Positions 2,947 to 64,000 of a stretch of 64,000 nt of DNA are shown one piece after another. The DNA lies in IMG/VR virus record IMGVR_UViG_3300003937_000092, positions 1 to 64,000 of that record. One strand, 5' to 3'. The DNA comes from an uncultured virus (IMG/VR IMGVR_UViG_3300003937_000092) (Duplodnaviria; Heunggongvirae; Uroviricota; Caudoviricetes). Position 1 is the stretch's first letter. Each line of letters begins with the position of its first letter. The notes beneath the pieces are model-generated. The model made no database searches. It was not told the origin of the DNA and saw only the letters and a program-made list of their open reading frames with translations. Both the position numbers and the translations under genes were made by a program.

Positions 2947-3717
2947 ATGTCAAGCGTTTCAAGAATTAAGAACCTTATGAGAATAACAGAGCAACAAAAA
3001 ATTGTGGCACCTTCGGTTAACATAGATGCGTTAATTACTATGTTATTATTTATAAAGGATAAAAATCCTGAAGTAATTGAGGATATAGAAGACTTTGAGG
3101 ATGTTGATTTTTCTGAATTTACTGGAGTAAGTCTAAGTAATTACATTAGTAAAAATTTACCTTTATTTGGTTTACCTAAATTTGATGGAGCAATTGAAGA
3201 TTTTTATGGGAATTTTATATTAAATAATATTACGTTAATTCGTAATGGTGAAACTGACAAAACTAAGTATACCATACCAACTCTTAAAAAATTTGAAGTA
3301 TTAGGTGAAGAAAGGTATAGTGGTAGAAAAGGTGATTATTATAAATTATTCCTTGAAGGTTACTCAGAAGAGTTTATCACTAGACAAATTGAAACAGGAG
3401 AAATTGATGTATCAATGGGGGAATTCATTGAAGAAGAATGGGGTGATACATGGGATACTGAAAGGTTTGTAGATGATATTAAAGAAGTACCTATGAATAC
3501 CGACACCTCATATAAGACTCCGTCAAATAATTCATTAAAAGAAGATGTAGAGATTCAACCTGAAATTAAATCGGAAGACTTCATGGATTTCGTTAACGGT
3601 GAATACGATATTGAAACATTAGAATTAATGCAGTCAGTAATATCGGGTAGAGTTCGTAAACTAAAAAGTTTAATCGATATCGCCAATCGAAAAGAAATCA
3701 AAGGTTATAGAAAATAA
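2947..3717 (+). CDS. Hypothetical acidic protein
   Basis: 256-aa ORF; ATATTTAT upstream; RIKNLMRITEQ leader. Confidence 0.7.
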   Translation: MSSVSRIKNLMRITEQQKIVAPSVNIDALITMLLFIKDKNPEVIEDIEDFEDVDFSEFTGVSLSNYISKNLPLFGLPKFDGAIEDFYGNFILNNITLIRNGETDKTKYTIPTLKKFEVLGEERYSGRKGDYYKLFLEGYSEEFITRQIETGEIDVSMGEFIEEEWGDTWDTERFVDDIKEVPMNTDTSYKTPSNNSLKEDVEIQPEIKSEDFMDFVNGEYDIETLELMQSVISGRVRKLKSLIDIANRKEIKGYRK

Positions 3718-3785
3718 AAAGGGAGATGGTAGCGAAACCTCTCCCCTTAATCGCTCATAACTATAAGCGGTCCTAAACTCCTACA
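3716..3785 (-). ncRNA. 3'-UTR/terminator element with two arms antisense to 23S rRNA (~1911-1940)
   Basis: Plus strand GGTAGCGAAA (3728-3737) and TAACTATAA(G)CGGTCCTAA (3758-3776) match conserved 23S TAACTATAACGGTCCTAA|GGTAGCGAAA; two hairpins and a U-tract on minus strand. Confidence 0.55.
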
Positions 3786-3793
3786 ACAACAGA

Positions 3794-3925
3794 TTACCTG
3801 TCATACGGAGCCATATGTTTACTCTCTTCAGAGTCATTACCTTTAAACTTACATGTACAGTTTTCACACGTACATCCTTCATTTAGACATTTTTCTTTTT
3901 TACAAGTACAATTTTCACAAGCCAT
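3794..3925 (-). CDS. Metallothionein-like Cys-rich peptide (43 aa, not in ORF track)
   Basis: Manual translation MACENCTCKKEKCLNEGCTCENCTCKFKGNDSEESKHMAPYDR; 8 Cys in first 25 aa; starts 4 nt after upstream stop. Confidence 0.75.
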   Translation of the reverse strand: MACENCTCKKEKCLNEGCTCENCTCKFKGNDSEESKHMAPYDR

Positions 3926-3929
3926 AATT

Positions 3930-4145
3930 TTATTTTTTTACGTTTAGAAATTTTTCAACTTCTTTATTATTAGGGATACCCATTTCACGATTACATTCAC
4001 AACAATACACTCTCATGTTGTTGGTCCCATCTTTAAATTTAACACGAGTCTCTTTATGAGTACACTTTTCTTGTATACTCGTCATTTCAGTCTCTAAATG
4101 TTTAATTTGTTTTTCAATGTTATTAATTTTTTCTGCATTTCCCAT
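3930..4145 (-). CDS. Small coiled-coil/zinc-ribbon protein
   Basis: CTH...CCEC motif. Confidence 0.65.
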   Translation of the reverse strand: MGNAEKINNIEKQIKHLETEMTSIQEKCTHKETRVKFKDGTNNMRVYCCECNREMGIPNNKEVEKFLNVKK

Positions 4146-4173: not shown

Positions 4174-4536
4174 CTATTTAAAATCAAATATAATACTTAT
4201 ATTTTGTTTTTCAAAATAGTTGTCAATCTTTTTTTTAAAATCAGGTAAAGCTCTTAAAAACTCTATCAGATTCATAAACTTTTGATTAACCTCCCCCTCA
4301 CTACTCATGTGAGATAATATCAAATTCTCTAAAGAACTGGCTTTTAATGGTAACATATTTTCTTTAATATTCAACTGTTCTTTCAATTCATCAGGTAACT
4401 CAAATGAAAGGGTATGTGAATGGTCACTTGAATCACTTAGAGGTATCACCTCGAAGTCAAAAAGACCACTTGGTCTCTTAGGTCCAAGCATAACGAAAAA
4501 GTCTCTCAATAGTTCTAATGCAACTTTGTTACTCAT
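4174..4536 (-). CDS. Hypothetical protein
   Basis: ORF with ATATTTAT upstream. Confidence 0.65.
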   Translation of the reverse strand: MSNKVALELLRDFFVMLGPKRPSGLFDFEVIPLSDSSDHSHTLSFELPDELKEQLNIKENMLPLKASSLENLILSHMSSEGEVNQKFMNLIEFLRALPDFKKKIDNYFEKQNISIIFDFK

Positions 4537-39484: not shown

Positions 39485-40305
39485 AGAACGCTGAGATTAC
39501 ACGTTTATGGTGACTTGTCTTTAGTGAGATTACCCTATATCGGTTGCTCATGTATCCACTCTCGTTGCCGAAAGTATCAAGTCAGTGTCGGTTATTTGAG
39601 TGAACCACTCTTTTCGTTAACAACTACTCAACTACTACTTTACTCTGTCAAACCTTGCGAGTTCACTAAGGGACGGCCATCCCACCAGGTATTTGATAAT
39701 TGACATCAGGAGACTTGCGGTCTACCGATGACTTCGTTAGTCTATTGACTCGAAGTGTTAGACACCTTTCGTTGTCAACGCCCGAAGAACTTTTGCTCTC
39801 TTTTAGTTTTAGTAAAAGTAACGATGGAAATGAGAAAGATGTGCTTCGGGAGAAGTTTCGTTTCTTTTGAAAACAAAATGCTTCACACCTCTCTGTAAGT
39901 CTGTCAACTTACGGTACTTCAGGAATACGTTAACTTATCGTATCGGAATTCCTTTGTACTGGTACTCAGCCCTACAACACCTGACAGGGTGTGTCGAACC
40001 GTCACCTGTAGCTTTTCCTATTGATATCACTATCTCAACTCTGATATTCCACGGACTCAGAGTGGTCTCGTCCCTTTAGCAGTTGCCCTTAGGGTCTTGA
40101 CCGTAGCCACTTTGTTTAGTTGTCAGAGTAAACTCTGCGAATATTCACGATGTACTATTCTCGTTTCAATCCCTTTAGTCCCATTGCTGGGGTTATCTAA
40201 CGACGCTAAACCGCCGTCAAATGTCATACTTAACCGTTTAAGAAAAAGGGGTTAATCTTTTGTATTCCTTTCACAAACTGTGATGGTTAAGGTGACACTT
40301 ACTAA
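39485..40305 (-). ncRNA. Large structured non-coding RNA, GOLLD-like
   Basis: ~820 nt, raised GC, no ORF on transcribed strand, many hairpins with GCAA/GAAA loops, bounded by promoters, boxA and terminator; ends approximate. Confidence 0.75.
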
Positions 40306-51497: not shown

Positions 51498-52553
51498 ATG
51501 AAAGAAAAAATTATCAATATACTATCGGGAGGTTCAGGTGAGGTTGAAGACTTTATCAACCGTTATCTCAATGGAGATAAGGATAGTTTTTTTGATTTGT
51601 TAGAAAGGTTTGGGTTACTTCAAAACTCCGACACATACGAAAGTGTTATTGAAATGTTTCCAATGACTTATCTAAGAAAGAGTTATATTGATGACCGTAA
51701 AAAAACTATCGATAACATTGTTTCCACTTATAGTGATATAACTAAGAAAGGTGATAAATATTTTTTAACTCTTGGTGAAAGGTCAGACTTAAGTATTTTT
51801 TTTAAATCAGATGACGGTAATCGTGAAATGTCATCATCGGAAATGGTTAAAAATATTTTAGGTGAAGATGATTGGTTCGAACCATTTAGCGATGTTACTC
51901 AAAATTTGTATACCGATGTTATTGAAGAGTTAAATGAAAAAAATAAATTCTTACTTGCCAAATCAATATCTGAAGAATTATCAGGAACTCAAATTTCACC
52001 CGAAACTGAGTTATTAGAAAATATGGCTAAAGACCAAGGTCACCCCGATTATGTTGATGTTAAAGACCCTATGTTAGTAATGGATATTTTAGAAGAAGAT
52101 GAAACATCTACTAAAGTTTTATTAGATGAAGCTTCTGAAGTTTCAAGTAATTTATATTCACTTCACCATAACTCATATAATACAGCATATACCGATGAAA
52201 AGTATAATGAAATAATGAGTGAAGTTAGAAGTTTATTGGAGATAGATAATAGTGGTGATTGGGAATCTAAGACCATAAAGAATAGTAAAGGTGAGGAGAA
52301 AACTATATATAACTACATCATTGAAGTTACCAAATTCATACCTTTTTTATTTAGTTCAATTTTTAATGATGACTATCAATTAGATGATTATAGAAATGCA
52401 TTTGACTATTATGGTGACTTTGAAGACCTCACTAAAGAAATGATTACTGAGGAAGTAATTGAAGGTGCATCAATGAGTAGAAGTTATTATGATTATGCCG
52501 ACCATACTTTAGTTAAAAAGTATTTAAATGATATGATTATTGATTACGTTTAA
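51498..52553 (+). CDS. Hypothetical acidic protein
   Basis: 351-aa ORF; ATATTTAT upstream. Confidence 0.7.
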   Translation: MKEKIINILSGGSGEVEDFINRYLNGDKDSFFDLLERFGLLQNSDTYESVIEMFPMTYLRKSYIDDRKKTIDNIVSTYSDITKKGDKYFLTLGERSDLSIFFKSDDGNREMSSSEMVKNILGEDDWFEPFSDVTQNLYTDVIEELNEKNKFLLAKSISEELSGTQISPETELLENMAKDQGHPDYVDVKDPMLVMDILEEDETSTKVLLDEASEVSSNLYSLHHNSYNTAYTDEKYNEIMSEVRSLLEIDNSGDWESKTIKNSKGEEKTIYNYIIEVTKFIPFLFSSIFNDDYQLDDYRNAFDYYGDFEDLTKEMITEEVIEGASMSRSYYDYADHTLVKKYLNDMIIDYV

Positions 52554-55500
52554 ACTTTCCCTCTAACTCAGTTAGTTCACCATCTTTATCCTTTAAGATT
52601 AATTCTTGTTCCTTAATTGCTTCAAATAATACTGAGATTAATTGTTCATAACTAACTTTATAACCTCTTTCTTCTGAACCACCAATTAATTCAGGTAAAA
52701 CTTCTTTTACCTCTTGAGCAATAACTCCAATATCTTTTCTACCACCATCAAGTAAAACGGTACCATCGAGATTTTCTTCTTTCCATATAAATTCAACACC
52801 ACGTAGATTTAAAACTTTCTGTAAAGGTGTATCAATTTTTTTAATATTTTCCTTTAATCTTTTATCGGAAAAAGAACCCGCCGGACCTTGGGCTCCTGCC
52901 GGTCCTTGAGTTCCTTGAATACCTTGTGAGCCTTGACTTGAAGTTCGTCCTTTTAAACCTTTTTCTCCGGTTCTACCTTTAATCCCTTTAAGTCCTTTTG
53001 GTCCTTTTTGTCCTGCTGGCCCTGTTGGTCCGCCAGAACCTGTAGGTCCTTTTGGACCTTGCGGACCTTGTGGTCCATCTTTACCAAGTACACCTTTTGG
53101 ACCTTTAGGTCCTTTATAACCTTTATGTCCTTTTAGGCCTTTTGGTCCTTTAGCTCCTTTAGGACCTTTAGGTCCTTTAAGACCTTTTTCAGTACTTGCC
53201 GGTCCTTGTGGTCCTGTATCACCTACGTCTCCTGACCCTTGAGATAATCTTGGTCCTTTTAAACCTTGGGGTCCTTGCGGTCCTCTAGGACCTTTGTAAC
53301 CTTTTGGACCTTTAAATCCTTTTTCCCCTGTATTCCCCTTATGACCTTTAGGTCCTTTGGGTCCTTGTCCACCTTTGAACCCTTTAGGTCCTTTTGGTCC
53401 TTGACTACCTACATTTCCTCTTGGTCCCTTTTCTGAACTTGCCGGACCTTCTTTACCTGTCGGACCTGTCGCCCCTCCAGAGGCTTTGGGTCCTTGTGGA
53501 CCTGTAGGCCCTTGCGGTCCTCGTGGTCCTTGGGGTCCTCGTGGTCCTGGCTCATTACCATCAGCACCTACAGCCCCTTTAGGTCCTTGTGGACCTTGTC
53601 CAGGTTGATAACCTGTAGGTCCTTGTGGACCTTGTCCACCTCTCGGACCTTTAATACCTTTATTACCTTTATCCGTACTTGCCGGACCTTGTGGTCCTGT
53701 AGGTCCATTAAGACCTTGACTAGCTTTAGGTCCTTGTGGTCCTTGTGAACCCTGAGGCCCTCTTGGACCCTTATTACCTTCTGGTCCCCTAACAGAACTT
53801 GCCGGTCCTTGTGGACCTTGTTGACCCGTTGCCGCTCTCGGCCCTTTGTAACCCTTAATACCTTTATCTGATGTTTGTGATTTAAGACCACCTTTTAAAC
53901 CTTTATTACCTTTATCAGTACTTGATGGACCTGTCGGTCCTTGTGGACCTGTATCACCACCAGAACCTTGTGTTGCCTTAGGCCCTTGTGGTCCTAAATC
54001 ACCTTTAATACCTTTATTACCTTGTGGACCTCTATCTGTACTTGCCGGACCTTGTGGTCCTGTAGGTCCATTAGTACCTTGACTAGCTTTAGAACCTTGT
54101 GGTCCTTGCGAGCCTTGGCTTTGTCGTGGACCTATAGCTCCTTTTGGTCCTGCAGTATTACCTGCCGGTCCTTTGGGTCCTGTTGGTCCTTGAATACCTG
54201 TACCTGACGCACTACCTTGGGGACCTCGGTTACCATCATTACCTTGTGGTCCTTTTGGTCCTATTGGACCTCTATCAGTACTTGCAGGTCCTTTTGGTCC
54301 TGTAGGACCTGTTGCCCCATTAGATGCTTTAGGTCCTTGTGACCCTTGTGTACCTCTCCCTGTCTGTAAACCTTTTGGTCCTTTATAACCTTTTAAACCT
54401 TTATCTGTTGAAGATGGTCCCTTATCACCTTGTGTGGTATTTTTAGTACCTTTTGGTCCTGTAGGACCGGTGGGGCCATTTGGTCCTTTAGTACCTTTAT
54501 AACCTTTTTGCCCTTTAATACCTTTATCAGTACTTGATGGACCTGTCGGTCCTTGTCCACCGGTAGTTCCCTTTGGTCCTGTCGGACCTTGAGGTCCTTG
54601 TCCACCTTGATTACCTCTAGGACCTTTTGGTCCTTGTGTTCCTTTATCAGTATTAGTTGGACCTGTTGGTCCTTGTGGACCTTTAAGTCCTTTATCGGCA
54701 TTATTAGGTCCTGTTGGTCCGTTGGGTCCTGTTGGTCCCGTTATACTATTTCCAATAGTTCCTCTCGGTCCATCTGTACCTTTCGGTCCTTTGATACCTT
54801 TGATACCTTTATTACCTTTATTTGTGGACGTACCACTCGGACCTTTTTCAGCTGTTGGACCTGTTGGTCCTTGTGTTCCTCTCGCCCCTTTAGGTGAAGT
54901 ACCAATTGTACCTCTCGGTCCTTGAAAACCTTTAGGTCCCTTATCACCTGTAGGTCCTTGTAGTCCTTTATCTGTATTTGTTGGTCCAATATCTCCACCA
55001 ACGGCAACATCACCTATAAGTCCCTTTTCATTATTACCTTGAGGTCCCTGAGGCCCTTGTGGTCCTCTTAACCCTTTAGTACCTTCTGGTCCTTTTAAAC
55101 CTTTGTCAGAACTTGCAGGTCCAATTGGTCCTTGTGGACCTGTAGGTCCTTGTGACCCTGAACTAGTTGATGATTGTGGTCCGATTAATCCTTTAATACC
55201 TTTGATACCAATTAATCCCTTTAACCCTTTCGTACCTTTATCAGTACTTGCCGGTCCTTGAGGTCCGTTATCTCCACCAGAACCTGTAGGTCCTTTTAGT
55301 GAATCACCCTGCAACCCTCTATCTCCATCAAATCCTTTTGGTCCTGTCGGTCCTTGTGGACCTATTGGTCCTTTAACGGCTGCTGGTCCACCTGGACCTG
55401 TTGGACCTTGTGGTCCGATAAATCCTTTTTCACCTTGTGTACCTATTACACCTCTACCTTGTTTAGGTCCTTTAATACCCTTGATACCTTTAATACCCTT

Positions 55501-56508
55501 GATACCTTTATCACCTTTGTCTGTAGATTGTGGACCTCTTGGTCCTAAATCACCATCAGGTCCTTGTACACCTACAATACCATCAGGACCTTGCGGACCT
55601 TGTGGTCCTGTAAGACCTTTTATACCTTTGTTACCAATAGGTCCTTTATCAGCGGTAGGTCCTGTTGGTCCTTGTGGTCCATTATCCCCATCTGTCGACC
55701 TAACACCTTTATCACCTTGTGGACCTTGATTTCCAAGAATACCTTTTTGTCCCTTTACACCTTTTATACCTTTTGGTCCTTTTTGACCTTTATCTGATGA
55801 TGTCGGCCCTTTTAAACCTGTTGGCCCTTGAGGTGAATCACCACCTATACTACCTTTTGGTCCTTGTTCAGGTTTTAGACCCTTATTTCCTTTAACACCT
55901 TTAAGACCTGTCGGACCTTTAGTTCCTTTATCTGAAGATGTTAACCCTTTTAGACCTGTTGGTCCTTTAAGACCTTTTGTTGAGTCTGACGGCTTTAACC
56001 CTTTTAACCCTTTAGGTCCAACAATACCTTTCTCACCTTGTGGTCCTCGGTTACCTTTATCCCCTTTGACTGAAAGCTCACCTTTGATTCCTTTTTCTCC
56101 GTCAGAACCAATACCACCTTTGATACCGAAGTCACCTTTATCACCTGTAGGTCCAACGATTCCCTGAATACCTTTATTACCTTTTAAACCTTTATCACCG
56201 TCAACACCTTGTAGTCCTTTGAGACCTTTTTGACCTTTAAGACCTTCTGTCTGCCCAACCCAATGACCTCCAGAGTCAACTACCATCATACTACCAACAT
56301 AAAGTTCACTATTAATAACATTAACCTCACCTGGTAATGATAATGGAGTAGCACTATCAGATATTTTAAAAATATTTGTAGAAGACTTAAATACTAAATC
56401 ACCTGTAGTATCTATTTCAATAGTATAATCAACACCTGTACCACTAAAAATTATATGTGGATTGGTGTTTAATGTACTTCCCGTAGGATATATTATAATA
56501 TTAGCCAT
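52537..56508 (-). CDS. Collagen-like tail fibre with C-terminal S74 intramolecular chaperone
   Basis: >1000 aa of interrupted Gly-[11 protein letters not shown]...IGVIAQEV. Confidence 0.9.
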
Positions 56509-59500
56509 TAATCTATTTGTGTTCTTAACCAGTTTATTTGTTCCTCTATGTCTTCAATAAATACTTGTTGACTTTTAATCGCTTCAATAATTAATGCATT
56601 TAATTTATAATACTTAATAGCTAAATAACCATCATCCCTTCTATAAACTACTTCAGGATATAATAAGTTTATTTCTTGTGCTATCATACCAATTGAATGT
56701 AATTTTTGTCTTTCCTTTAAGAAGTCATATCCTGTATAATTTTCATTCCAATCATATTCCGTAACATTAATTTTTAGTAACTTATTCAAAGAGTCACTTA
56801 ATGTTTTAGTACCATGTTTAAGTCTACTATCAGAAGCCCTACAATCGGCACAAGCATATATTTCACAAGCATTTACTACTGATTTAGGTGGTGGTGTAAT
56901 TACCCATGAAAATAAAACTCCACCTAAGTTGACCGCGTCCCATATAGTTATAAAATCTGTAGATAGATTTCTCATACATGGTAATCCCTCAAATTCTCTA
57001 CAATCTTTACAATCTGGGTCAGTATAGAGGATATCACCCTGAGCTAATGGTTGTATATCACCTTTATATACAGTCAAATTTACCTTATCTCCACATGGGC
57101 TACTTCTACCATTACAATACGCACAATCTTCACCTGCTCTTACCGCAATGTCATGAGCGAAACAAAACGCACCACCTGTGGGTCCTTTTATACCTTTATT
57201 ACCTTTTAAACCTTTTGGTCCTGTTGGTCCAGATAACGCTGCTGGTCCATCTGACCCTTGTGGGCCTCTTGGTCCTTGTGGACCTTGAAGACCTTGTGGA
57301 CCACTACCACCTTGTCGACCTTTATACCCTTTAGGTCCTTTATAACCTTTATAACCTTTTGGTCCTGTTGGTCCTTGTGGTCCGGGATTTCCAGCGATAC
57401 CTGTTTGACCCTTATCTGTAGAAGCATTACCTCTCGGACCTTGTGGTCCTCTTGGTCCTGTTTTAGATGATTGTGACCCTTTCGACCCTTGAGGTCCTCT
57501 TGGGCCCTTGTAACCTTTAATTCCTTTATGTCCTTTTAAACCTTTTGGTCCTAATGGTCCTATTGGTCCTGTCGGTCCTTGAGATGTGCTTTGGGTACCT
57601 ATTAGTCCTCTACCACCTTGTGGACCTCTACCACCTTGTGGACCTTTTGGTCCTTTTGGTCCTTTAGTTGTATTAGTTGTTCCTTGTGGACCACGAGTAC
57701 CTTTATCACTATTTGCTGGCCCTGTAGGTCCTAACTGACCCTTTAAACCTTTCTCACCTGTAATACCTTTTAGTCCTTTGAAAGCGGCTGGACCTCCAAT
57801 ACCTACAGCACCTTTTGGTCCTTTTGAAGTACTTTGAGGACCTGTCGGTCCTTGTGGACCTTTTGGTCCTTTTAGTCCTGTTGGACCTGTATCACCATTT
57901 TGAGCGGTCGGTCCATTTGGCCCTCTTTCTCCTTTATAACCTTTAACTGAACTACCAGTTCCTTGTGGTCCTAAAGGTCCTTTATACCCTTTATGTCCTT
58001 TTAACCCTTTTAACCCTTTGAATGCTGCGGGTCCACCTGCACCTGTTGGACCTGTTGGACCACTTTGTGTTCCTTGATTTCCTGTCGGTCCTTTAGGTCC
58101 TATTAAACCTTTTGTACCTTTTAATCCTTTGAATGCTGTCGGTCCTGTCTGTCCTTGAGGACCTCGTGGTCCTTTATCACCAGCAACACCTGTTGTCGCT
58201 CCTTGTGGTCCTAAAGGTCCCTTATATCCTTTAGGTCCTTTAGTCCCTTTTTTACCTTTAATACCTTTAAATGCTGCCGGACCTGTTGGACCTTGTGGTC
58301 CTCCATCGGCAGTTGATGGTCCTTGTGGTCCCTTAGGTCCTTTATACCCTTTATGTCCTTTTAACCCTTTTAACCCTTTGAATGCTGTCGGTCCATTATC
58401 CCCTGTTGGACCTTGAGGTCCACCATCTCCTGTCGCTGAACCTATTGGACCTTTTGGTCCATAAGCCCCTTTAATACCTTTTTGACCTTTAAGTCCTTTA
58501 TAGGCTGTTGGTCCATTATCTCCTCCAGGTCCTGTAGGTCCTTGAGATGTACTTTGTGTTCCTTTCGGCCCTTTAGGTCCTTTAGGTCCTTTATAACCTT
58601 TTATTCCTTTTAGTCCTTTAAATGCTGCCGGACCTGTTGGACCTTGTGGTCCTTGTTCTCCACCAGTACCTGTTGTTGTTCCTCTTCCACCCTGTGGTCC
58701 TCTTGGTCCCTTAATACCTATTAATCCTTTACTACCTTTTACTCCATCAGTTGCTCTTAATCCTTTGAGACCTTTTTGACCCTTAAGACCTTTAACTGTT
58801 GAAGTAGTACCTCTACTACCATCTGGACCTTTATAACCTTTTTGACCTTTTATACCTTTATCACCATCAGTGGCTCTAAAACCTTTTTGACCTTTAATTC
58901 CTTTGTCACCTGCAGATACACTTATTAAACCTTTATCACCAGTAACACCTTTTAACCCTTTTAAACCTTTAGGTCCTTTATTACCTTGTGGTCCTTTATA
59001 ACCTTTTTGACCTTTGATACCTTTATAACCCTTTTGCCCTTTGATACTTTCAGGACCTTGTGGGCCCGCATCACCTTGACTGGCTTTAAGTCCTTTATTT
59101 CCTTGAGGCCCTATTAAACCTTTTAACCCTTTAAAACCTTTATTACCTTTTAATCCTTTAAGTCCTTTATTACCTTGGTCCGCCACTGGTCCCGTTGGTC
59201 CTTGTGGTCCTCCATCACCTTGACTCGCGATTAAACCTTTAGGTCCTTTAGGTCCCTTAACACCTTTCTTACCTTTTAATCCTTTATAACCTTTATTACC
59301 TTTATCTCCCTGTGGTCCTCTTTGACCCTTTTCCCCTGTAGGTCCTAACTCATTACCTTGGCTTGTTGGCCCTTGAGGTCCTTTTGTCCCATCAATACCC
59401 TTTTTACCTTTTAACCCTTTTAATCCTTTAAGTCCTTTAAGACCTTTATCCGCTCCCTCACCATCTTGTGAAACTGGACCTTGAGCTCCTTGGTCAGCAA

Positions 59501-61829
59501 TTGCTCCTTGTGGTCCTTGTGGACCAAGTAATCCTTTTCGACCTTTTAAACCTTTGAGACCTTTATCACCTTTATTACCGGTCAGACCTTTATCGGATTG
59601 AGGACCTGTTGGTCCCGTATCTCCTTGGCTAGCTATTAGACCTTTGACACCTTTAATACCTTTAAGACCTTTATTACCTCTTCTACCTTTAATACCTTTT
59701 TCACCTTTATCGGTAGAAGTTTCACCTCTACCACCTGTAGGTCCTTGGTCACCATCAGGACCTATTTGACCTTTGGGTGAAACACCTATGGAACCATCAG
59801 GTCCTTTAATACCTTTTGGTCCAACAACTCCAACTTCACCTTTTGGACCTTTTAAATCACCAACAGGTCCATCAACACCGATAGGTCCCTTTTCACCTAC
59901 CACACCTTTTGTTCCACTATCGGTATCAGGTCCTTTAGCCCCTTTTAAACCTTTTAATCCTTTTAATCCTTTTAATCCTTTAGTTCCTTTATCGTCACCA
60001 GCGATTCCTTTATTACCTTCGTCACCAGTTTCACCTTGTTGTCTTAGAAAAGACGTTAAAGCGTTTGTAACAACGGATTCCGTAAAATTACTAACAGTAG
60101 GGTCAACATCAAATCCAAAATGTTTTAGTCCTGAACCATTTTTAAAACTACTTTCTAAATTTGTATAACAAGTTTCAGACGTTAAACCTGAATATACATT
60201 TGTTCTTGTTAATGCACTTAAATTTAAGTTTTCAGGACCAACTGAAGTTATGTTATCACCATATCTGTTTAAAAACTCATTACTAGTGATGGTACTACCC
60301 TCAATTGCTGCTACTGCATGTTGAACAAACGCATAAGTTGAAGTACCTCTAAGTGGGTTTACAACTGGATAAACTAAACCTTGAGCATTACCCCCTCTAT
60401 TGGATATAATATCTTCATATACTTGAACATAAGAACAGTAATCGTGTAAATACCTATTCGTATATTCATCACCCGCATTATTATTCCAATAATTACCATT
60501 TAATTCAAATGGTTTATTATACAAATCACTCTTAGTTGGATTACTATTAGTCCCACCTACCTGTCCATGATATAAACCAACAAGACCATCTGACTCATCA
60601 GCAACAATAATTACCAAATAGTTAGTATTATCACCACCAAATGAACCTTGTCCCGATGTTTCCGTATTATTTAAATCACTATGGTCAAAAGGTACACCCT
60701 GAGATATTGTTTCAGCGGCACCTGTATCTAAATTAACACCTCTGTTAATTCTTCTATATATCGTTTCACCATCATTAAATTGTGAGTTTCTTGGTACACA
60801 ATTACCACCTGAGTTAGACTTACAATAATCAGATTGATAAGTTGCATTAGGTACAGCACTATTAAATTCATTAATTTGTGTGTTATCAGATAAGGTACCT
60901 CCGGATAGTGAACCAAGATATGGGTAAGATGCCCACCATAACCAGTTTTCACCATTATGAGAATTTTTACCAATTACCCCCTCGTATAGTTTATTAATAT
61001 CACCATCACCATTTACCGTTTGGAACCAATCTCTAACACTCTGCGAAGCTTCTTTAGCTTTATCACTTGGCATTGATGTCGCGTCATAGAAAACATAAAC
61101 ATCTACATTTGCAGTAATCCCAATTGGTCCTTGAGGTCCTTTTACACCTACCTCACCTTTTGGACCAATTGGTCCTTTATTAGTACCTGTGGGTCCTTGG
61201 TTACCTTTACTCGCCGATAATCCTGTAGGACCTTTCAGTGAGTCACCAATTAATCCCTTTATACCTTTATTACCTTTGAAACCTTTAAACCCTTGTGGTC
61301 CTACTGGACCTTTTAAAGATGTCGGACCTATTGGTCCTGTATTACCCTGAGGACCTATTTGACCTTTGACACCTGTTGGCCCTATAGGTCCTTGGTTAGC
61401 CTTTTCTCCTTTGATACCTTTTAACCCCTTAGTACCTTGGTCACCCTGTGGACCTTGTTCAGTAGAAGTTATACCTTTTAAACCTTTTTTACCTTTTAAA
61501 CCTTTTTCTCCATCAACCGCTCTACTACCCTTAAGACCTGTAGGTCCATTTGGACCTTGTGTACCAGTCGGTCCAATCATATTCATAGGGTAACCCTTCC
61601 ACTTACCTAAGTCATCAATTAGTTCGTTACTATTCTCTTTCTTTACTGAAACAGACGGCATAAACTTTATATTATCTAACTCTAAGTTTGAAGTAATTTT
61701 AAAATCATTACCTAAGTGGGTGTTGAAATTTAATTCACCACTATTATAGTCAATATTAATCATAGTACTATTAGTACCTGAAAAACTGATTGTCCCACCC
61801 GTTGGATTTATTTTAATGTCTCTACCCAT
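56508..61829 (-). CDS. Collagen-like tail fibre with vWA-like insert, Cys-rich domain and S74 chaperone
   Basis: Gly-X-Y tracts; VYVFYDATS...LVIIVADES insert; SDSRLKH...IGMIAQEI. Confidence 0.9.
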
Positions 61830-64000
61830 TTAAAATTTTTGATTTTAATATGTTAATTCTATCTGTTATATTTTCAATACGTGTGTTTTGTTCTTGTATA
61901 GAACCTATACCAATCGCAACTAATTTACCGTACTCAAGTTTTAGATAACCACTCTCACTATTAAATACAACTTCAGGTATAACTTTTTCAATATCTTGAG
62001 CGATAAATCCAAAATCTTCACCATAATTATTTTCAAATTTAGTTGACCCACCTTTCCATGTAAACTTTACACCGTCAATTAATTTTAACTTACTTAGATT
62101 ACCTTTTAAAGATTTAATATTATTTTTTAATCTTTTATCTGATGCTGGACCTTGTAGTCCCTGTGGTCCTTGTAAACCTCTTGGTCCTTTTGGACCTTTA
62201 GGTCCTTGTCCACCAGTTGGCCCTGTCGCACCACCACTACCAGCCGGTCCTTGTGGTCCTGTCGGTCCCTGTGGTCCACTTGTTCCTTGTCCTCCTCTTG
62301 GTCCCGTACTACCAATTGGCCCTCTTAGTCCTTTTACCCCCTTTACTGTTGATGTTGGTCCTTTTGGTCCTATCGGACCTTTATCCGTACTTGCCGGACC
62401 TTGTGGTCCTGTTGGACCTGTTGGTCCAAGGTCATTACCAATTGGCCCTGTTGGTCCTTTTACTGTTGAAGTATTACCTTGCGGACCTATTGGTCCTTGA
62501 CTACCTTGTTTTTCAATAGGGCCTTTTAGTCCTTTAAGACCCTTTAACCCTTTTTCAGTACCTGCTGGTCCTTGTGGTCCCGTTGGTCCATTTGAACCTC
62601 CACCACCTGTTGGCCCTGTTGGACCACCTGACCCATTTGACCCACCTGGACCTGTTGGTCCATTTGAACCTCTTGGTCCTTTATAACCTTTTATACCTTT
62701 ATCTGTAGATTGTAGACCTCTTGGTCCTTGTGAGCCTTGTGGTCCTCTATTTCCTTTAGGTCCTTTACTACCTTGTAGACCTTTAAGACCTTTATCTGTA
62801 CCTATAAAACCTTTTTGACCTTTATCTGTAGATTGAGAACCTTGTGGTCCCTTAATACCTTTACGTCCCTTTGGCCCTTTTCGCCCTTTTAATCCTTTAA
62901 CACCCTGTAGACCCCTTTCTGAACTTGACGGTCCTATTGGTCCTTTTACTGTTGAATCATTTCCTCTTGACCCTTGAGGTCCTTGATTACCTCTATTACC
63001 CTTCGGCCCTTTTGGCCCTTTAAGTCCCTTTAAACCTTTTTCAGTACTTGGCTGTCCTTTTAATCCTTTTACTGTTGAATCATTTCCTCTTGGTCCTTGC
63101 GGTCCTCGTATACCTTTATCACCTTTTATTCCTGAATCACCAACTGCACCTTTTTGACCTTTAGTATTATTAGTTGGACCTTTTGGTCCTTGTGTAGTTG
63201 AAGCTGAACCTCTTGGTCCTTGCGGTCCTTGCGACCCCTGATTTCCTCGATTACCTTTAACTCCTTTTAAACCTTTTGGACCTTTAGTTGTATTATCTAT
63301 CCCTTTAAACCCTTTAACCGTTGAATTGGCTCCTCTAACACCTTGTGGTCCTTGGTTACCTCTATTACCCTTTGGCCCTTTTAAACCTTTTAGTCCTTTT
63401 AGCCCTTTTTCAGAATTATTTGGTCCTTTCGCCCCTTTTACTATTGATGTCGCACCTTGTGCCCCTCTATTACCAACAGAACCTCTTGGCCCTTTAGGTC
63501 CTTTATAACCTTTCTGTCCTTTAATACCTTTAGTAGTACTGGTTATACCTTTATACCCCTTTACGGTTGATGTTGCTCCTTGTGGTCCTCTTGGACCTTG
63601 ACTACCTCTATTACCTTTAACTCCTTTTAAACCCTTTAACCCTTTATGACCTTTAGTGTCATTGGTTGGACCTTGTGGACCCGTTGGTCCTGCAGCGGCT
63701 TGGTCCCCCTGTGGTCCCTGTGGACCTTTTTGACCTTTATCAGTAGATTGTTTTCCTTGTTGTCCTCTATTACCAACCGGACCTCTATCGGTACTTGCCG
63801 GTCCTGTTGGTCCTTGTGCGGCTTGACTCCCTCTACTTCCTTGTGGACCTTTTTGACCCTTATCAGTAGATTGTGAACCTCTATCGCCTTGAGGACCCTT
63901 AAGTCCTTTTTCCTCAGACTGTGGACCTCTATTACCTTTGTCGGATGATACACCAATATTACCTCTGTTACCTGTTGGCCCTTGCGGTCCTTTACCTCCT
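61822..64000 (-). CDS. Third collagen-like tail fibre with S74 chaperone (5' end beyond window; not in ORF track)
   Basis: Gly-X-Y codons to window edge; [12 protein letters not shown]...[16 protein letters not shown]...ILNG-stop at 61822. Confidence 0.88.

What the first reader, a model, noticed from the sequence alone, without database searches (positions are those of the whole stretch)
3716..3785. Permuted, bipartite antisense element to 23S rRNA helix 69 and the adjacent segment in a phage 3'-UTR
Seen: the minus strand reads GGAGU-UUAGGACCG(C)UUAUAGUUA-ugagcgauuaaggggaga-GGUUUCGCUACC-AUCUCCC-UUUUU. Known: bacterial 23S has conserved UAACUAUAACGGUCCUAA|GGUAGCGAAAUU (E. coli ~1911-1940; H69 forms bridge B2a; this is also the I-CeuI site, whose top-strand cut is at the bar). 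Arm 1 pairs with 1911-1928 (18 bp, one bulge) and arm 2 with 1929-1940 (10 WC + 2 G-U). About 30 contiguous rRNA nt are thus covered, in swapped order. Each arm is sequestered in its own hairpin (CGCUUAU/AUGAGCG and the terminator), and flanking GGAG/CUCC could close a three-way junction at 1928/1929. Inference: an undescribed ribosome-targeting phage RNA (inhibitor, guide, or splint/shield against an rRNA-cleaving defence), or a DNA decoy for a 23S-targeting nuclease.
Basis: partly seen in the sequence, partly recalled or inferred. Interest (0 to 1): 0.9.

Follow-up and report, generated by a model that had tools for sequence, protein, structure and literature searches.

The report
Phage RNA family mirroring 23S rRNA
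The flagged stretch is a real, conserved three-hairpin RNA at the end of a phage message, one member of a large phage-only RNA family whose exposed bases complement a universally conserved part of the bacterial large ribosomal RNA, so it probably pairs with host ribosomal RNA, which nobody has tested.

Summary
The window's minus strand carries the complement of E. coli 23S 1911-1928 (one extra C) and of 1929-1940, in swapped order. Within this one window the match is weak statistically (arm 1 BLAST E=0.95; 48 of 2000 shuffles reach it).

The element is a conserved island: 83-89% identical where flanking DNA is 48-64%. It is present in 27 of 28 related loci. It folds on the minus strand as P1, a single-stranded UUAGGACCG, P2, and a terminator P3 with UUCGCUACC in its loop.

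It belongs to a large family. The swapped-order pattern has at least 120 hits in IMG/VR (tool estimate about 430), with spacing peaked at 29-30 nt. The collinear order has 4 hits. Bacterial and archaeal genomes (596 Gb) give 60 matches with flat spacing. Stems covary strongly. The family is not in Rfam, and five literature searches found no description.

Best reading, about 55%: the RNA pairs with host 23S rRNA at helix 69-70. The effect is unknown. Earlier notes of this scan describe similar RNAs on other DNA.

The parts
3776..3812 (-). P1: hairpin GGCUCC.UAUGACAG[GUAAUCUG]UUGUUGUAGGAGUU. Its loop holds the stop codon (3794-3796) of the small Cys-rich ORF.
   Evidence: MFE fold. Relatives have a short CCUC-loop-GAGG hairpin at the same place, and wider family members have a covarying 5' hairpin (sequences; read by eye, not counted formally).
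3768..3776 (-). Motif 1, UUAGGACCG: complement of 23S 1920-1928 (3' strand of helix 69 plus junction). UAGGAC is predicted unpaired.
   Evidence: Identical in 11 of 13 distinct variants of the local family; the other two are UUAGGGCCG (G-U with U1923) and CUAGGACCG. Unpaired probability 0.92 in the window, mean 0.60 over 26 members, against 0.38 for the rest of the RNA.
3752..3769 (-). P2: hairpin CGCUUAU[AGUU]AUGAGCG. Its 5' strand and loop (UUAUAGUUA, 3758-3766) complement the helix 69 loop 1911-1919. C at 3767 is the extra base.
   Evidence: RNAalifold: 7 pairs, and variation is U-A/U-G and C-G/U-G only, which pairs on the minus strand and not on the plus strand. Covariation in the wider family, (helix 1: 5 of 7 pairs changed on both sides).
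3719..3748 (-). P3: intrinsic-terminator hairpin AAGGGGAGAGGU[UUCGCU]ACC(A)UCUCCCUU. Motif 3, (GG)UUUCGCUACC (3728-3739), lies in the loop and upper stem and complements 23S 1929-1940 (10 Watson-Crick pairs plus 2 G-U).
   Evidence: Wider-family helix 2: 9 of 11 pairs changed on both sides, 95.6% of cells paired. Loop unpaired probability 1.0 in the window, mean 0.90.
3711..3720 (-). U-run UUUUUAUUUU after P3. It overlaps the stop codon (3715-3717) of the convergent plus-strand gene.
   Evidence: Sequence. The simple terminator scan did not call it; I put this down to the bulged stem, which I did not check.
3794..3925 (-). Upstream gene whose 3' UTR is the element: a 43-aa Cys-rich peptide (CxxCxC repeats).
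   Evidence: ORF; sequence. Conserved in relatives, and the same peptide type lies upstream of the element in L181.
2947..3717 (+). Convergent 256-aa gene of no known family. It was used as the anchor to find relatives.

Best explanation
The element is the 3' end of the minus-strand message for two small ORFs. It is a three-hairpin RNA: P1, a single-stranded UUAGGACCG, P2, a short linker, then P3. P3 doubles as the intrinsic terminator. It belongs to a large, uncatalogued, phage-only RNA family (here called type B). The family keeps two unpaired words, UUAGGACCG and UUCGCUACC, in this order. These words complement the adjacent 23S rRNA segments 1920-1928 and 1929-1937. P2 resembles the antisense of helix 69.

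I infer that the RNA, as the mRNA tail or as a processed 3'-UTR small RNA, base-pairs with host 23S rRNA at the helix 69 / helix 70 core. The proposed path is contact through the free word and the P2 and P3 loops, then spreading of the duplex, as in loop-presenting antisense RNAs. The most plausible targets are nascent or assembling 50S, or free 50S, where this stretch is not yet locked (from general knowledge). Pairing there would stop helix 69-70 from folding or from forming intersubunit bridge B2a. That would hold back new or free large subunits.

**Shown:** the sequence complementarity, the conservation, the strand, the fold, family membership and the restriction to phages.

**Inferred:** that rRNA is the target, and what the consequence is.
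For: 1. **Complementarity is verified** against E. coli rrlH. The 32-nt site is identical (0 mismatches in 22 matches) in 18 of 41 genomes sampled from the phylum of G004, the genome of a Leeuwenhoekiella record.
2. **Conserved island.** The element is 83-89% identical to L024, L045, L041 and L038. Flanking DNA is 51-79% identical on the coding side and 48-57% on the other side. It is present in 27 of 28 loci that reach the site. There is one copy per contig in 4 of 4 records searched.
3. **Strand and fold.** All variation in P2 and P3 keeps pairing on the minus strand (U-A/U-G, C-G/U-G, one G-C to A-U). On the plus strand it gives C-A mismatches.
4. **Family.**
The spacer is 29-30 nt in 78 of 120.
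   - The opposite order gave 4 hits in the same collection.
   - The same pattern in 596 Gb of bacterial and archaeal genomes gave 61 loci and 60 matches with a flat spacer spread. Only L195 looks like the family.
   - A model built only from the window's relatives matches 29 further pattern loci over its full length.
   - On that alignment 14 of 18 pairs change on both sides. The covariation score is 0.545 against 0.170, and 0 of 500 shuffles reach it.
5. **Bases outside the search pattern also follow 23S.**
   - The 14 nt after motif 1 in 25 type B sequences align to the antisense of 1906-1919 with mean score 6.48, against 3.72 for shuffles.
   - UU follows motif 1 in 17 of 24.
   - In the sister type A, CC precedes motif 1 in 63 of 63 distinct sequences, which complements G1929-G1930.
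6. **The same base change arose twice.** The one internal substitution seen in motif 1, A to G, appears in two clades ascertained without the motif: L043, L049, L050 and L267. It keeps a G-U pair with U1923.
7. **Both words are predicted accessible:** 0.60 and 0.90 unpaired, against 0.38 for the rest, over 26 members.
8. **Predicted energetics.** Co-folding with 23S fragments gains -15 to -23 kcal/mol. Shuffled targets give a mean of -4.5 and a best of -12.2 (200 shuffles).
9. **Independent collinear versions.** L061 and L062/L063 carry 19-21 nt of perfect antisense to 1920-1940, followed by a hairpin and a T-run.
10. **Expression hint.** The region sits in contigs of 4 marine metatranscriptomes from 4 studies at 100% identity. 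All of them stop at 4296-4329.
Against: - **No interaction data.** Nothing here shows RNA-RNA contact.
- **The wide family was collected by requiring both words,** so their invariance in that set is by construction. Unbiased samples are small: 13 variants here and 5 loci (4 distinct sequences) in the RNR clade.
- **In the local family the match erodes.**
  - Motif 3 is UACGCUACC in 6 of 13 variants, which leaves 7 contiguous pairs.
  - The helix-69-loop complement gains mismatches in L030 (U-U), in L037/L038/L041 (U-C), and through the indel in L024/L045.
- **Topology.** Part of motif 3 lies in the P3 stem and in a closed loop, which limits pairing.
- **Target accessibility.** In mature ribosomes 1906-1937 is folded and partly buried (general knowledge).
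- **Conserved positions that 23S does not explain.** GA precedes motif 3 in 63 of 63 type A sequences, where the complement would be U.
- **Energetic specificity is not unique.** For the window's own sequence, 16S 301-331 scores -16 to -17.8 kcal/mol, nearly as good as the 23S site.
- **The element is sporadic,** hence dispensable. It is present in 4 of 67 distinct regions downstream of one RNR clade, and it is replaced by another terminator in L052.
- **RNA-library contigs cannot show strand, ends or level**.
Confidence: 0.55

Rival explanations
1. The RNA is a conserved structured element whose two invariant words are contact sites for a protein (a phage or host RNA-binding protein, or an RNase) or make tertiary contacts. 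The likeness to antisense 23S would then reflect origin from an antisense rDNA fragment, or mimicry, and not pairing with rRNA.
For: - Conserved positions that 23S pairing does not explain: GA before motif 3 in 63 of 63 type A sequences, and the tail AGUGAGC in 58 of 63.
- Motif 3 sits in a closed hairpin loop, as protein-bound loops often do.
- The match to 23S erodes in parts of the local family.
Against: - Two words that map to directly adjacent rRNA segments, plus a P2 that resembles anti-helix-69, plus a third loop in type A that complements 16S 519-527, are hard to explain without rRNA as the reference.
- The only recurrent internal substitution in motif 1 is the one that keeps a G-U pair with 23S.
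- No partner protein is known, and gene neighbours differ between members.
Confidence: 0.2
2. The RNA acts on the rRNA genes, not on rRNA. It would act as a guide or R-loop former at the 23S rDNA of the host, to block rrn transcription or to direct a nuclease to a multi-copy, universally conserved site.
For: - The same complementarity applies to the non-template DNA strand.
- The site is the classic target of rDNA homing endonucleases (from the finding's text and my own knowledge).
- Swapped bipartite guides exist in group II introns (EBS2 before EBS1; recalled, not tested).
Against: - No conserved partner gene sits next to the element, and neighbours differ: a Cys-rich peptide, an RNR large subunit, and others.
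- Nothing in the 10 nearest ORFs matches a nuclease or reverse transcriptase family.
- At 65-100 nt, with a terminator inside it, the element is small for known guide scaffolds.
Confidence: 0.1
3. The element is an ordinary intrinsic terminator with an extra stabilising hairpin between convergent genes. The rRNA likeness is chance, picked out because the scan read very many windows.
For: - Within the window the statistics allow it: arm 1 E=0.95, and 48 of 2000 shuffles reach the cluster score.
- P3 is a terminator by form.
- L052 carries a different terminator at the same place.
Against: - Swapped order at least 120 hits (estimate about 430) against 4 for the opposite order in the same collection.
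- Flat background in 596 Gb of cellular genomes.
- A conserved island against diverged flanks.
- Words invariant while stems covary.
- Unselected flanking bases also follow 23S.
Confidence: 0.04
4. The element works at the DNA level, as a decoy or remnant of a 23S-rDNA nuclease or recombinase site (I-CeuI-like), or as an attachment site.
For: - The words are those of the I-CeuI region (finding text).
- Other viral contigs hold 41-45 nt sense fragments of 23S 1916-1960 (L058, L060), and one contig runs into 23S from position 1917 (L059).
Against: - The swapped order and the 20-nt spacer destroy a contiguous site.
- Stem variation is of the RNA type (G-U) and strand-specific.
- The structure covaries.
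Confidence: 0.03

Closest known systems
Loop-presenting antisense RNAs of plasmids and phages (CopA/CopT of R1, RNA I/RNA II of ColE1, Sok/hok); recalled, not tested
   Same: - A small structured RNA with a terminator hairpin.
- Complementary bases are presented in hairpin loops and in a single-stranded stretch next to a stem.
- P2 mirrors a target hairpin (helix 69), so loop-loop contact followed by spreading is conceivable.
   Different: - The target would be ribosomal RNA in trans, not a cis-encoded message.
- Complementarity is short (9+9 nt core) and split in swapped order.
- No partner locus is encoded opposite.
3'-UTR-derived base-pairing small RNAs of bacteria (such as CpxQ, DapZ and SroC; a paper on such RNAs, PMC7398697, appeared in a search listing only)
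   Same: It lies at the end of a coding message, shares the mRNA's intrinsic terminator, and has a short conserved unpaired seed.
   Different: - The seed complements rRNA rather than mRNA leaders.
- The family occurs after unrelated genes in many phages, like a portable module.
- Processing and Hfq or ProQ dependence are unknown.
rRNA-complementary guide RNAs of archaea and eukaryotes (box C/D and H/ACA)
   Same: Short bipartite complementarity to conserved rRNA; helix 69 is a heavily modified region.
   Different: - No C/D boxes (RUGAUGA, CUGA), and no ACA at the 3' end, in the sequence printed.
- Their bipartite guides are collinear with a hairpin inserted between, not swapped.
- No snoRNA family matched in Rfam.
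- Bacteria lack the partner proteins (general knowledge).
Collinear anti-23S small-RNA-like loci in other viral contigs (L061, L062/L063), and this scan's earlier notes on phage RNAs antisense to helix 69-71
   Same: - The same 23S core (1920-1938/40) is complemented, followed by a terminator hairpin.
- L062 reads GGTTTCGCTACC+TTAGGACCGC, which is the window's arm 2 joined to the start of arm 1, including the non-23S bases GG and C.
   Different: - In those loci the antisense is one continuous stretch. Here it is split and swapped, with P2 between.
- Homology between the two layouts is not shown.

Membership tests
Swapped-order anti-23S phage RNA, type B (defined here; no published name found) | UUAGGACCG, or a one-base variant, lying 5' of a hairpin and largely unpaired | tested here: met
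   Window 3768-3776. Unpaired probability 0.92.
Swapped-order anti-23S phage RNA, type B (defined here; no published name found) | P2 hairpin directly after the word, then a short A/U-rich linker | tested here: met
   Model R1 aligns the window and 29 pattern loci over positions 1-65. P2 covaries.
Swapped-order anti-23S phage RNA, type B (defined here; no published name found) | Terminator hairpin P3 with (U)UUCGCUA in the loop, closed by G..CC, followed by a U-run | tested here: met
   Window 3711-3748. The same layout is seen in 31 of 120 pattern loci with a T-run, plus 4 without one.
Swapped-order anti-23S phage RNA, type B (defined here; no published name found) | Spacing of 25-33 nt between the two words | tested here: met
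   The window's spacer is 31 nt. Type B spacers are 25-33 nt in 30 of 31.
Intrinsic (rho-independent) terminator | G+C-rich stem-loop followed by a U-run at the end of a transcription unit | tested here: met
   - The P3 stem is about 11 pairs with one bulge, followed by UUUUUAUUUU.
- The consensus scanner missed it.
- Termination itself was not measured; RNA contigs run past it, but strands cannot be told.
Any Rfam 15 family | Match at or near a family's gathering score | tested here: not met
   - Window scan: only GOLLD, elsewhere in the window.
- 12 family loci at E up to 1: only neighbouring tRNAs and a weak STnc390 hit (25.3 bits against 50).
I-CeuI-type rDNA homing site | A contiguous copy of the 23S 1911-1940 sequence | tested here: not met
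   The two halves are swapped and 20 nt apart, and one base is inserted.
Box C/D or H/ACA guide RNA | C/D boxes or an ACA/H box; collinear bipartite guide around a hairpin | tested here: not met
   No such boxes in the sequence printed. The order of the arms is swapped. No Rfam match.
Trans-acting antisense RNA that binds 23S rRNA | A physical RNA-rRNA duplex, in vivo or in vitro | not testable with these tools
   Only predicted energies are available.

The most novel reading that the evidence does not exclude
Tailed phages of water and soil carry a widespread RNA family, in at least two layouts. Its conserved exposed bases hybridise to the universally conserved helix 69-70 core of 23S rRNA. 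In the sister layout a third loop also complements the 530 loop of 16S rRNA. That would be an RNA-only, host-independent way for a virus to seize, stall or dismantle host ribosomes or their assembly. The window's copy rides on the terminator of a small-peptide message.
Probability: 0.5. Interest if true: 0.9.

Novelty: new variant of a known kind. Interest (0 to 1): 0.82.

Why it matters
Phages are known to reshape host translation with proteins and tRNAs. I found no description of a phage RNA that addresses ribosomal RNA itself. I searched Rfam and ran five full-text searches. The target stretch is identical from E. coli to the Bacteroidota sampled, so one RNA could work in any host, and the host cannot easily escape by mutation. 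If pairing is real, it opens a testable route to how large marine and lake phages control ribosome supply. It would also point to a natural antisense design against helix 69, a site already explored with synthetic antisense oligomers (recalled).

Tried and rejected
- **Chance plus plain terminator.** This was my reading up to (about 80%). I dropped it.
- **The plus strand as a helix-69 mimic.** Rejected because relatives break the plus-strand stem (C-A) while keeping the minus-strand stem (U-G).
- **GGAG/CUCC closing helix.** Not supported.
- **Host covariation for the phage GGGCC variant.** A 23S with C at 1923 was found in 0 of 301 and 0 of 301 genomes of two phyla. The wild-type site was found in 18 of 41 of the first sample, so many of these genomes lack assembled rRNA. 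The variant reads as a G-U wobble.
- **Complement of 16S 326-345 in the window** (GUAGGAGU...GGACCG). It is not kept in relatives, so I treat it as incidental.
- **Second targets inside the window for either word.** None beyond chance.
- **BLAST of the window region and of two family members against cultured phages.** No match. The two family queries are too short for that tool; the 1601-base window query simply found no cultured relative.
- **Earlier notes looked up by place and by sequence.** Nothing.
- **Bacterial Schlafen paper (PMC13056530, passages read).** It describes a tRNase and is not relevant.
- **The RNR-anchored census** gave only 5 loci with the element out of 80 loci (67 distinct regions). 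That is too few for an unbiased profile.
- **Read laying** used contigs only, so ends, strand and level stay open.
- **** were tool errors of usage, corrected with the same tool.
Full report
**What is there.** The window is the first 64 kb of a 72-kb IMG/VR virus record. G+C is about 31%. Its genes are those of a tailed phage: collagen-like tail fibres, thymidylate synthase, methyltransferase and endolysin. Relatives come from marine metagenomes.

The flagged stretch lies between two convergent genes:
- a 256-aa plus-strand gene at 2947-3717;
- a 43-aa Cys-rich minus-strand ORF at 3794-3925.

None of the ten nearest ORFs has an informative Pfam or PHROG match.

**The observation.** E. coli rrlH (L001) reads TAACTATAACGGTCCTAAGGTAGCGAAATT at 1911-1940. 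The window's plus strand has:
- GGTAGCGAAA at 3728-3737;
- TAACTATAA at 3758-3766, then an extra G;
- CGGTCCTAA at 3768-3776.

So the minus strand complements 1911-1938/40 in swapped order. Taken alone this is not beyond chance. Arm 1 has BLAST E=0.95 against E. coli rRNA. In 48 of 2000 dinucleotide shuffles of the window, some rRNA cluster of 28 nt or more appears under a permissive rule. Up to I therefore read it as a terminator with a chance likeness.

**Relatives found through the neighbouring gene.** The 256-aa protein recovered 4 viral and 29 metagenome loci.
- Of 28 loci that reach the site, 27 carry the element. One (L052) has an unrelated terminator.
- There are 13 distinct variants.
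- Against the most diverged relatives the element is 83-89% identical. The adjacent coding DNA is 51-79% identical, and the other flank 48-57%. The conserved block starts exactly at UAGGACCG.
- RNAalifold gives two hairpins on the minus strand. Every variable pair changes as U-A/U-G or C-G/U-G, with one G-C to A-U double change. These changes would be C-A mismatches on the plus strand, so the functional strand is the minus strand.
- With upstream sequence included, a third hairpin (P1) forms, with the ORF's stop codon in its loop.
- The layout in window coordinates is:
  - P1, 3776-3812
  - UAGGAC, unpaired
  - P2, 3752-3769
  - linker
  - P3 terminator, 3719-3748
  - U-run
- Within this family the invariant core is UUAGGACCG plus CGCUACC. 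The rest of the rRNA match drifts:
  - motif 3 is UACGCUACC in 6 of 13 variants;
  - the helix-69-loop complement acquires U-U or U-C mismatches, or an indel, in 6 variants.
- The element is single-copy in each of 4 phage records searched.

**The wider family.** Earlier notes of this scan spoke of phage RNAs antisense to helix 69-71 on other DNA. I treated them as a lead and tested the idea independently.
- The continuous 18-mer of 23S 1920-1937 occurs in 8 viral loci:
  - 2 are true 23S;
  - 1 runs into 23S at a contig end;
  - 2 are 41-45-nt fragments;
  - 3 (two kinds) are 19-21 nt of antisense followed by a hairpin and a T-run.
  - the tool estimates about 430 stored stretches;
  - the spacer is 29-30 nt in 78 of 120.
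- The opposite order gave 4 loci in the same collection.
- The same pattern in 596 Gb of bacterial and archaeal genomes gave 60 matches, with spacers spread flat from 10 to 39 nt. Nearly all lie in unrelated contexts, and only L195 resembles the family. So the layout is real and essentially confined to viral contigs.

**Two architectures.** Of the 120 loci:
- 84 (63 distinct) are type A. These are three hairpins with loops CCUUAGGACCG, CGGCUGCUG and GAUUCGCUACC.
- 35 (24 or more distinct) are type B. These have a free word, P2, and a terminator with the second word in its loop.
- 1 looks like chance.

CGGCUGCUG is the complement of 16S 519-527. It is exact in 48 of 63 type A sequences and carries one mismatch in 10.

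The window is type B.
- A covariance model built only from its gene-anchored relatives matches 29 pattern-found loci end to end, with E from 3e-12 to 0.05.
- On the resulting alignment:
  - 92.4% of cells pair, against 71.4% in shuffles;
  - 14 of 18 pairs change on both sides;
  - the covariation score is 0.545 against 0.170, and 0 of 500 shuffles reach it;
  - slid controls score 0.148 or less.
- That alignment was fitted to the model, which favours the structure.

Type B copies sit directly after stop codons of unrelated genes:
- the same Cys-rich peptide (L181);
- an RNR large subunit (6 loci);
- others.

In an RNR-anchored sample the element is present in only 5 of 80 loci, which is 4 of 67 distinct downstream regions. 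So it behaves as a portable, dispensable module.

**Does selection follow 23S?** The two words were required by the search, so their constancy in that set proves nothing. The informative evidence is what was not required.
- The 14 nt after motif 1 in 25 type B sequences align to the antisense of 1906-1919 with mean score 6.48, against 3.72 for shuffles. Type A and the rest score 4.05 against 3.48.
- UU follows the word in 17 of 24 type B sequences. CC precedes it in 63 of 63 type A sequences. Both fit 23S.
- In the two samples ascertained without the motif, the only internal change in motif 1 is A to G: L043, L049 and L050 here, and L267 in the RNR clade. That change keeps a G-U pair with U1923. 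No sampled host 23S has C at that position (0 of 301 and 0 of 301), while the wild-type site was found in 18 of 41 genomes of the first sample.
- Both words are predicted to be more exposed than the rest: 0.60 and 0.90 unpaired against 0.38, over 26 members.
- Against this, GA before motif 3 is invariant in type A where 23S would call for U. The local family also tolerates a 7-pair arm 2.

**Energetics and expression.**
- Co-folding the window's RNA with 23S fragments gains -15.3 to -22.8 kcal/mol after paying for P2 and helix 69. Shuffled targets give a mean of -4.5 and a best of -12.2.
- Along real rRNA the best windows contain the site (-18.7 and -18.1). 16S 301-331 comes close (-16 to -17.8), through bases that relatives do not keep.
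- Thirteen marine RNA-library runs hold the region. Contigs of four of them, from four studies, cover 3300 to about 4325 at 100% identity, and all stop at 4296-4329. Two bridge the element. Contigs cannot give strand, ends or level, so this is only a hint of transcription.

**Known families.**
- Rfam has no match.
- Five full-text searches found no phage RNA described as complementary to 23S or rRNA. From these I saw listings and abstract starts only. The one exception is PMC13056530, where I read passages and found it irrelevant.
- The closest working analogues are loop-presenting antisense RNAs and 3'-UTR-derived small RNAs. Guide snoRNAs share the rRNA complementarity but not the boxes or the arm order.
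- Statements about helix 69, bridge B2a, late folding of this region and the I-CeuI site rest on the finding's text and my own knowledge, not on a call.

**Verdict.** The element is a real member of a large, uncatalogued, phage-only structured RNA family, with about 0.9 confidence. That it works by pairing with host 23S rRNA is the best-supported reading, at about 0.55, and is untested. The rivals are:
- a protein-binding or tertiary role of the words (0.2);
- action on rDNA (0.1);
- chance (0.04);
- a DNA-level site (0.03).

Noticed in passing
window 39488-39893 (-): A full-length GOLLD RNA (Rfam RF02032, 293 bits, E 8e-83) lies in the same phage contig.
   Followed up: no
window 3794-3925 (-); L019 about 3830-3935; L181 upstream flank: A 43-aa peptide rich in CxxCxC repeats (MACENCTCKKEKCLNEGCTCENCTCKF...) is conserved in relatives. 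The same type precedes the RNA in the unrelated pattern hit L181. It has no Pfam or PHROG family. It may be a metal-binding or modified peptide.
   Followed up: partly
L066-L185 (84 of 120 loci), e.g. L066, L074, L076: Sister 'type A' RNA: three hairpins whose loops complement 23S 1920-1930, 16S 519-527 (the 530 loop) and 23S 1929-1937. A conserved AGUGAGC tail follows, often running into a CATAAATA-like box.
   Followed up: partly
L061, L062, L063 (viral contigs): Small-RNA-like loci with 19-21 nt of continuous perfect antisense to 23S 1920-1940, followed by a hairpin and a T-run. L061 sits next to a tRNA gene. L062 reads as the window's arm 2 fused to arm 1.
   Followed up: partly
L058, L060, L059 (viral contigs): Fragments of 41-45 nt identical or nearly so to 23S 1916-1960 sit inside otherwise unrelated phage DNA. 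One contig switches into 23S exactly at position 1917 and runs to its end. This could be an insertion junction or a chimeric assembly.
   Followed up: no
G004:C5:262872-262955 (Leeuwenhoekiella record, L193/L252): The 32-nt helix 69-70 site occurs twice, 52 nt apart, in a 23S gene about 565 bases from a contig end. This is a short tandem duplication or an assembly artefact.
   Followed up: no
window about 4296-4329: RNA-library contigs from four studies all end here, inside the predicted ORF 4174-4536 (-). That suggests a transcript boundary, so this ORF may be mis-called or may have an internal start.
   Followed up: no
window 52000-64000: G+C rises from about 31% to 40-43% over two giant collagen-like tail-fibre genes (1323 and 1773 aa). 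They contain repeated units; for example TGGTCCTAA recurs every 240 nt at 57726-58206.
   Followed up: no
window 2947-3717 (+) and relatives: The last 60 or so residues of the 256-aa protein are nearly invariant in proteins that are otherwise 43-52% identical. The gene's last 25 nt are conserved together with the RNA. This points either to mosaic exchange of the block or to joint constraint.
   Followed up: partly
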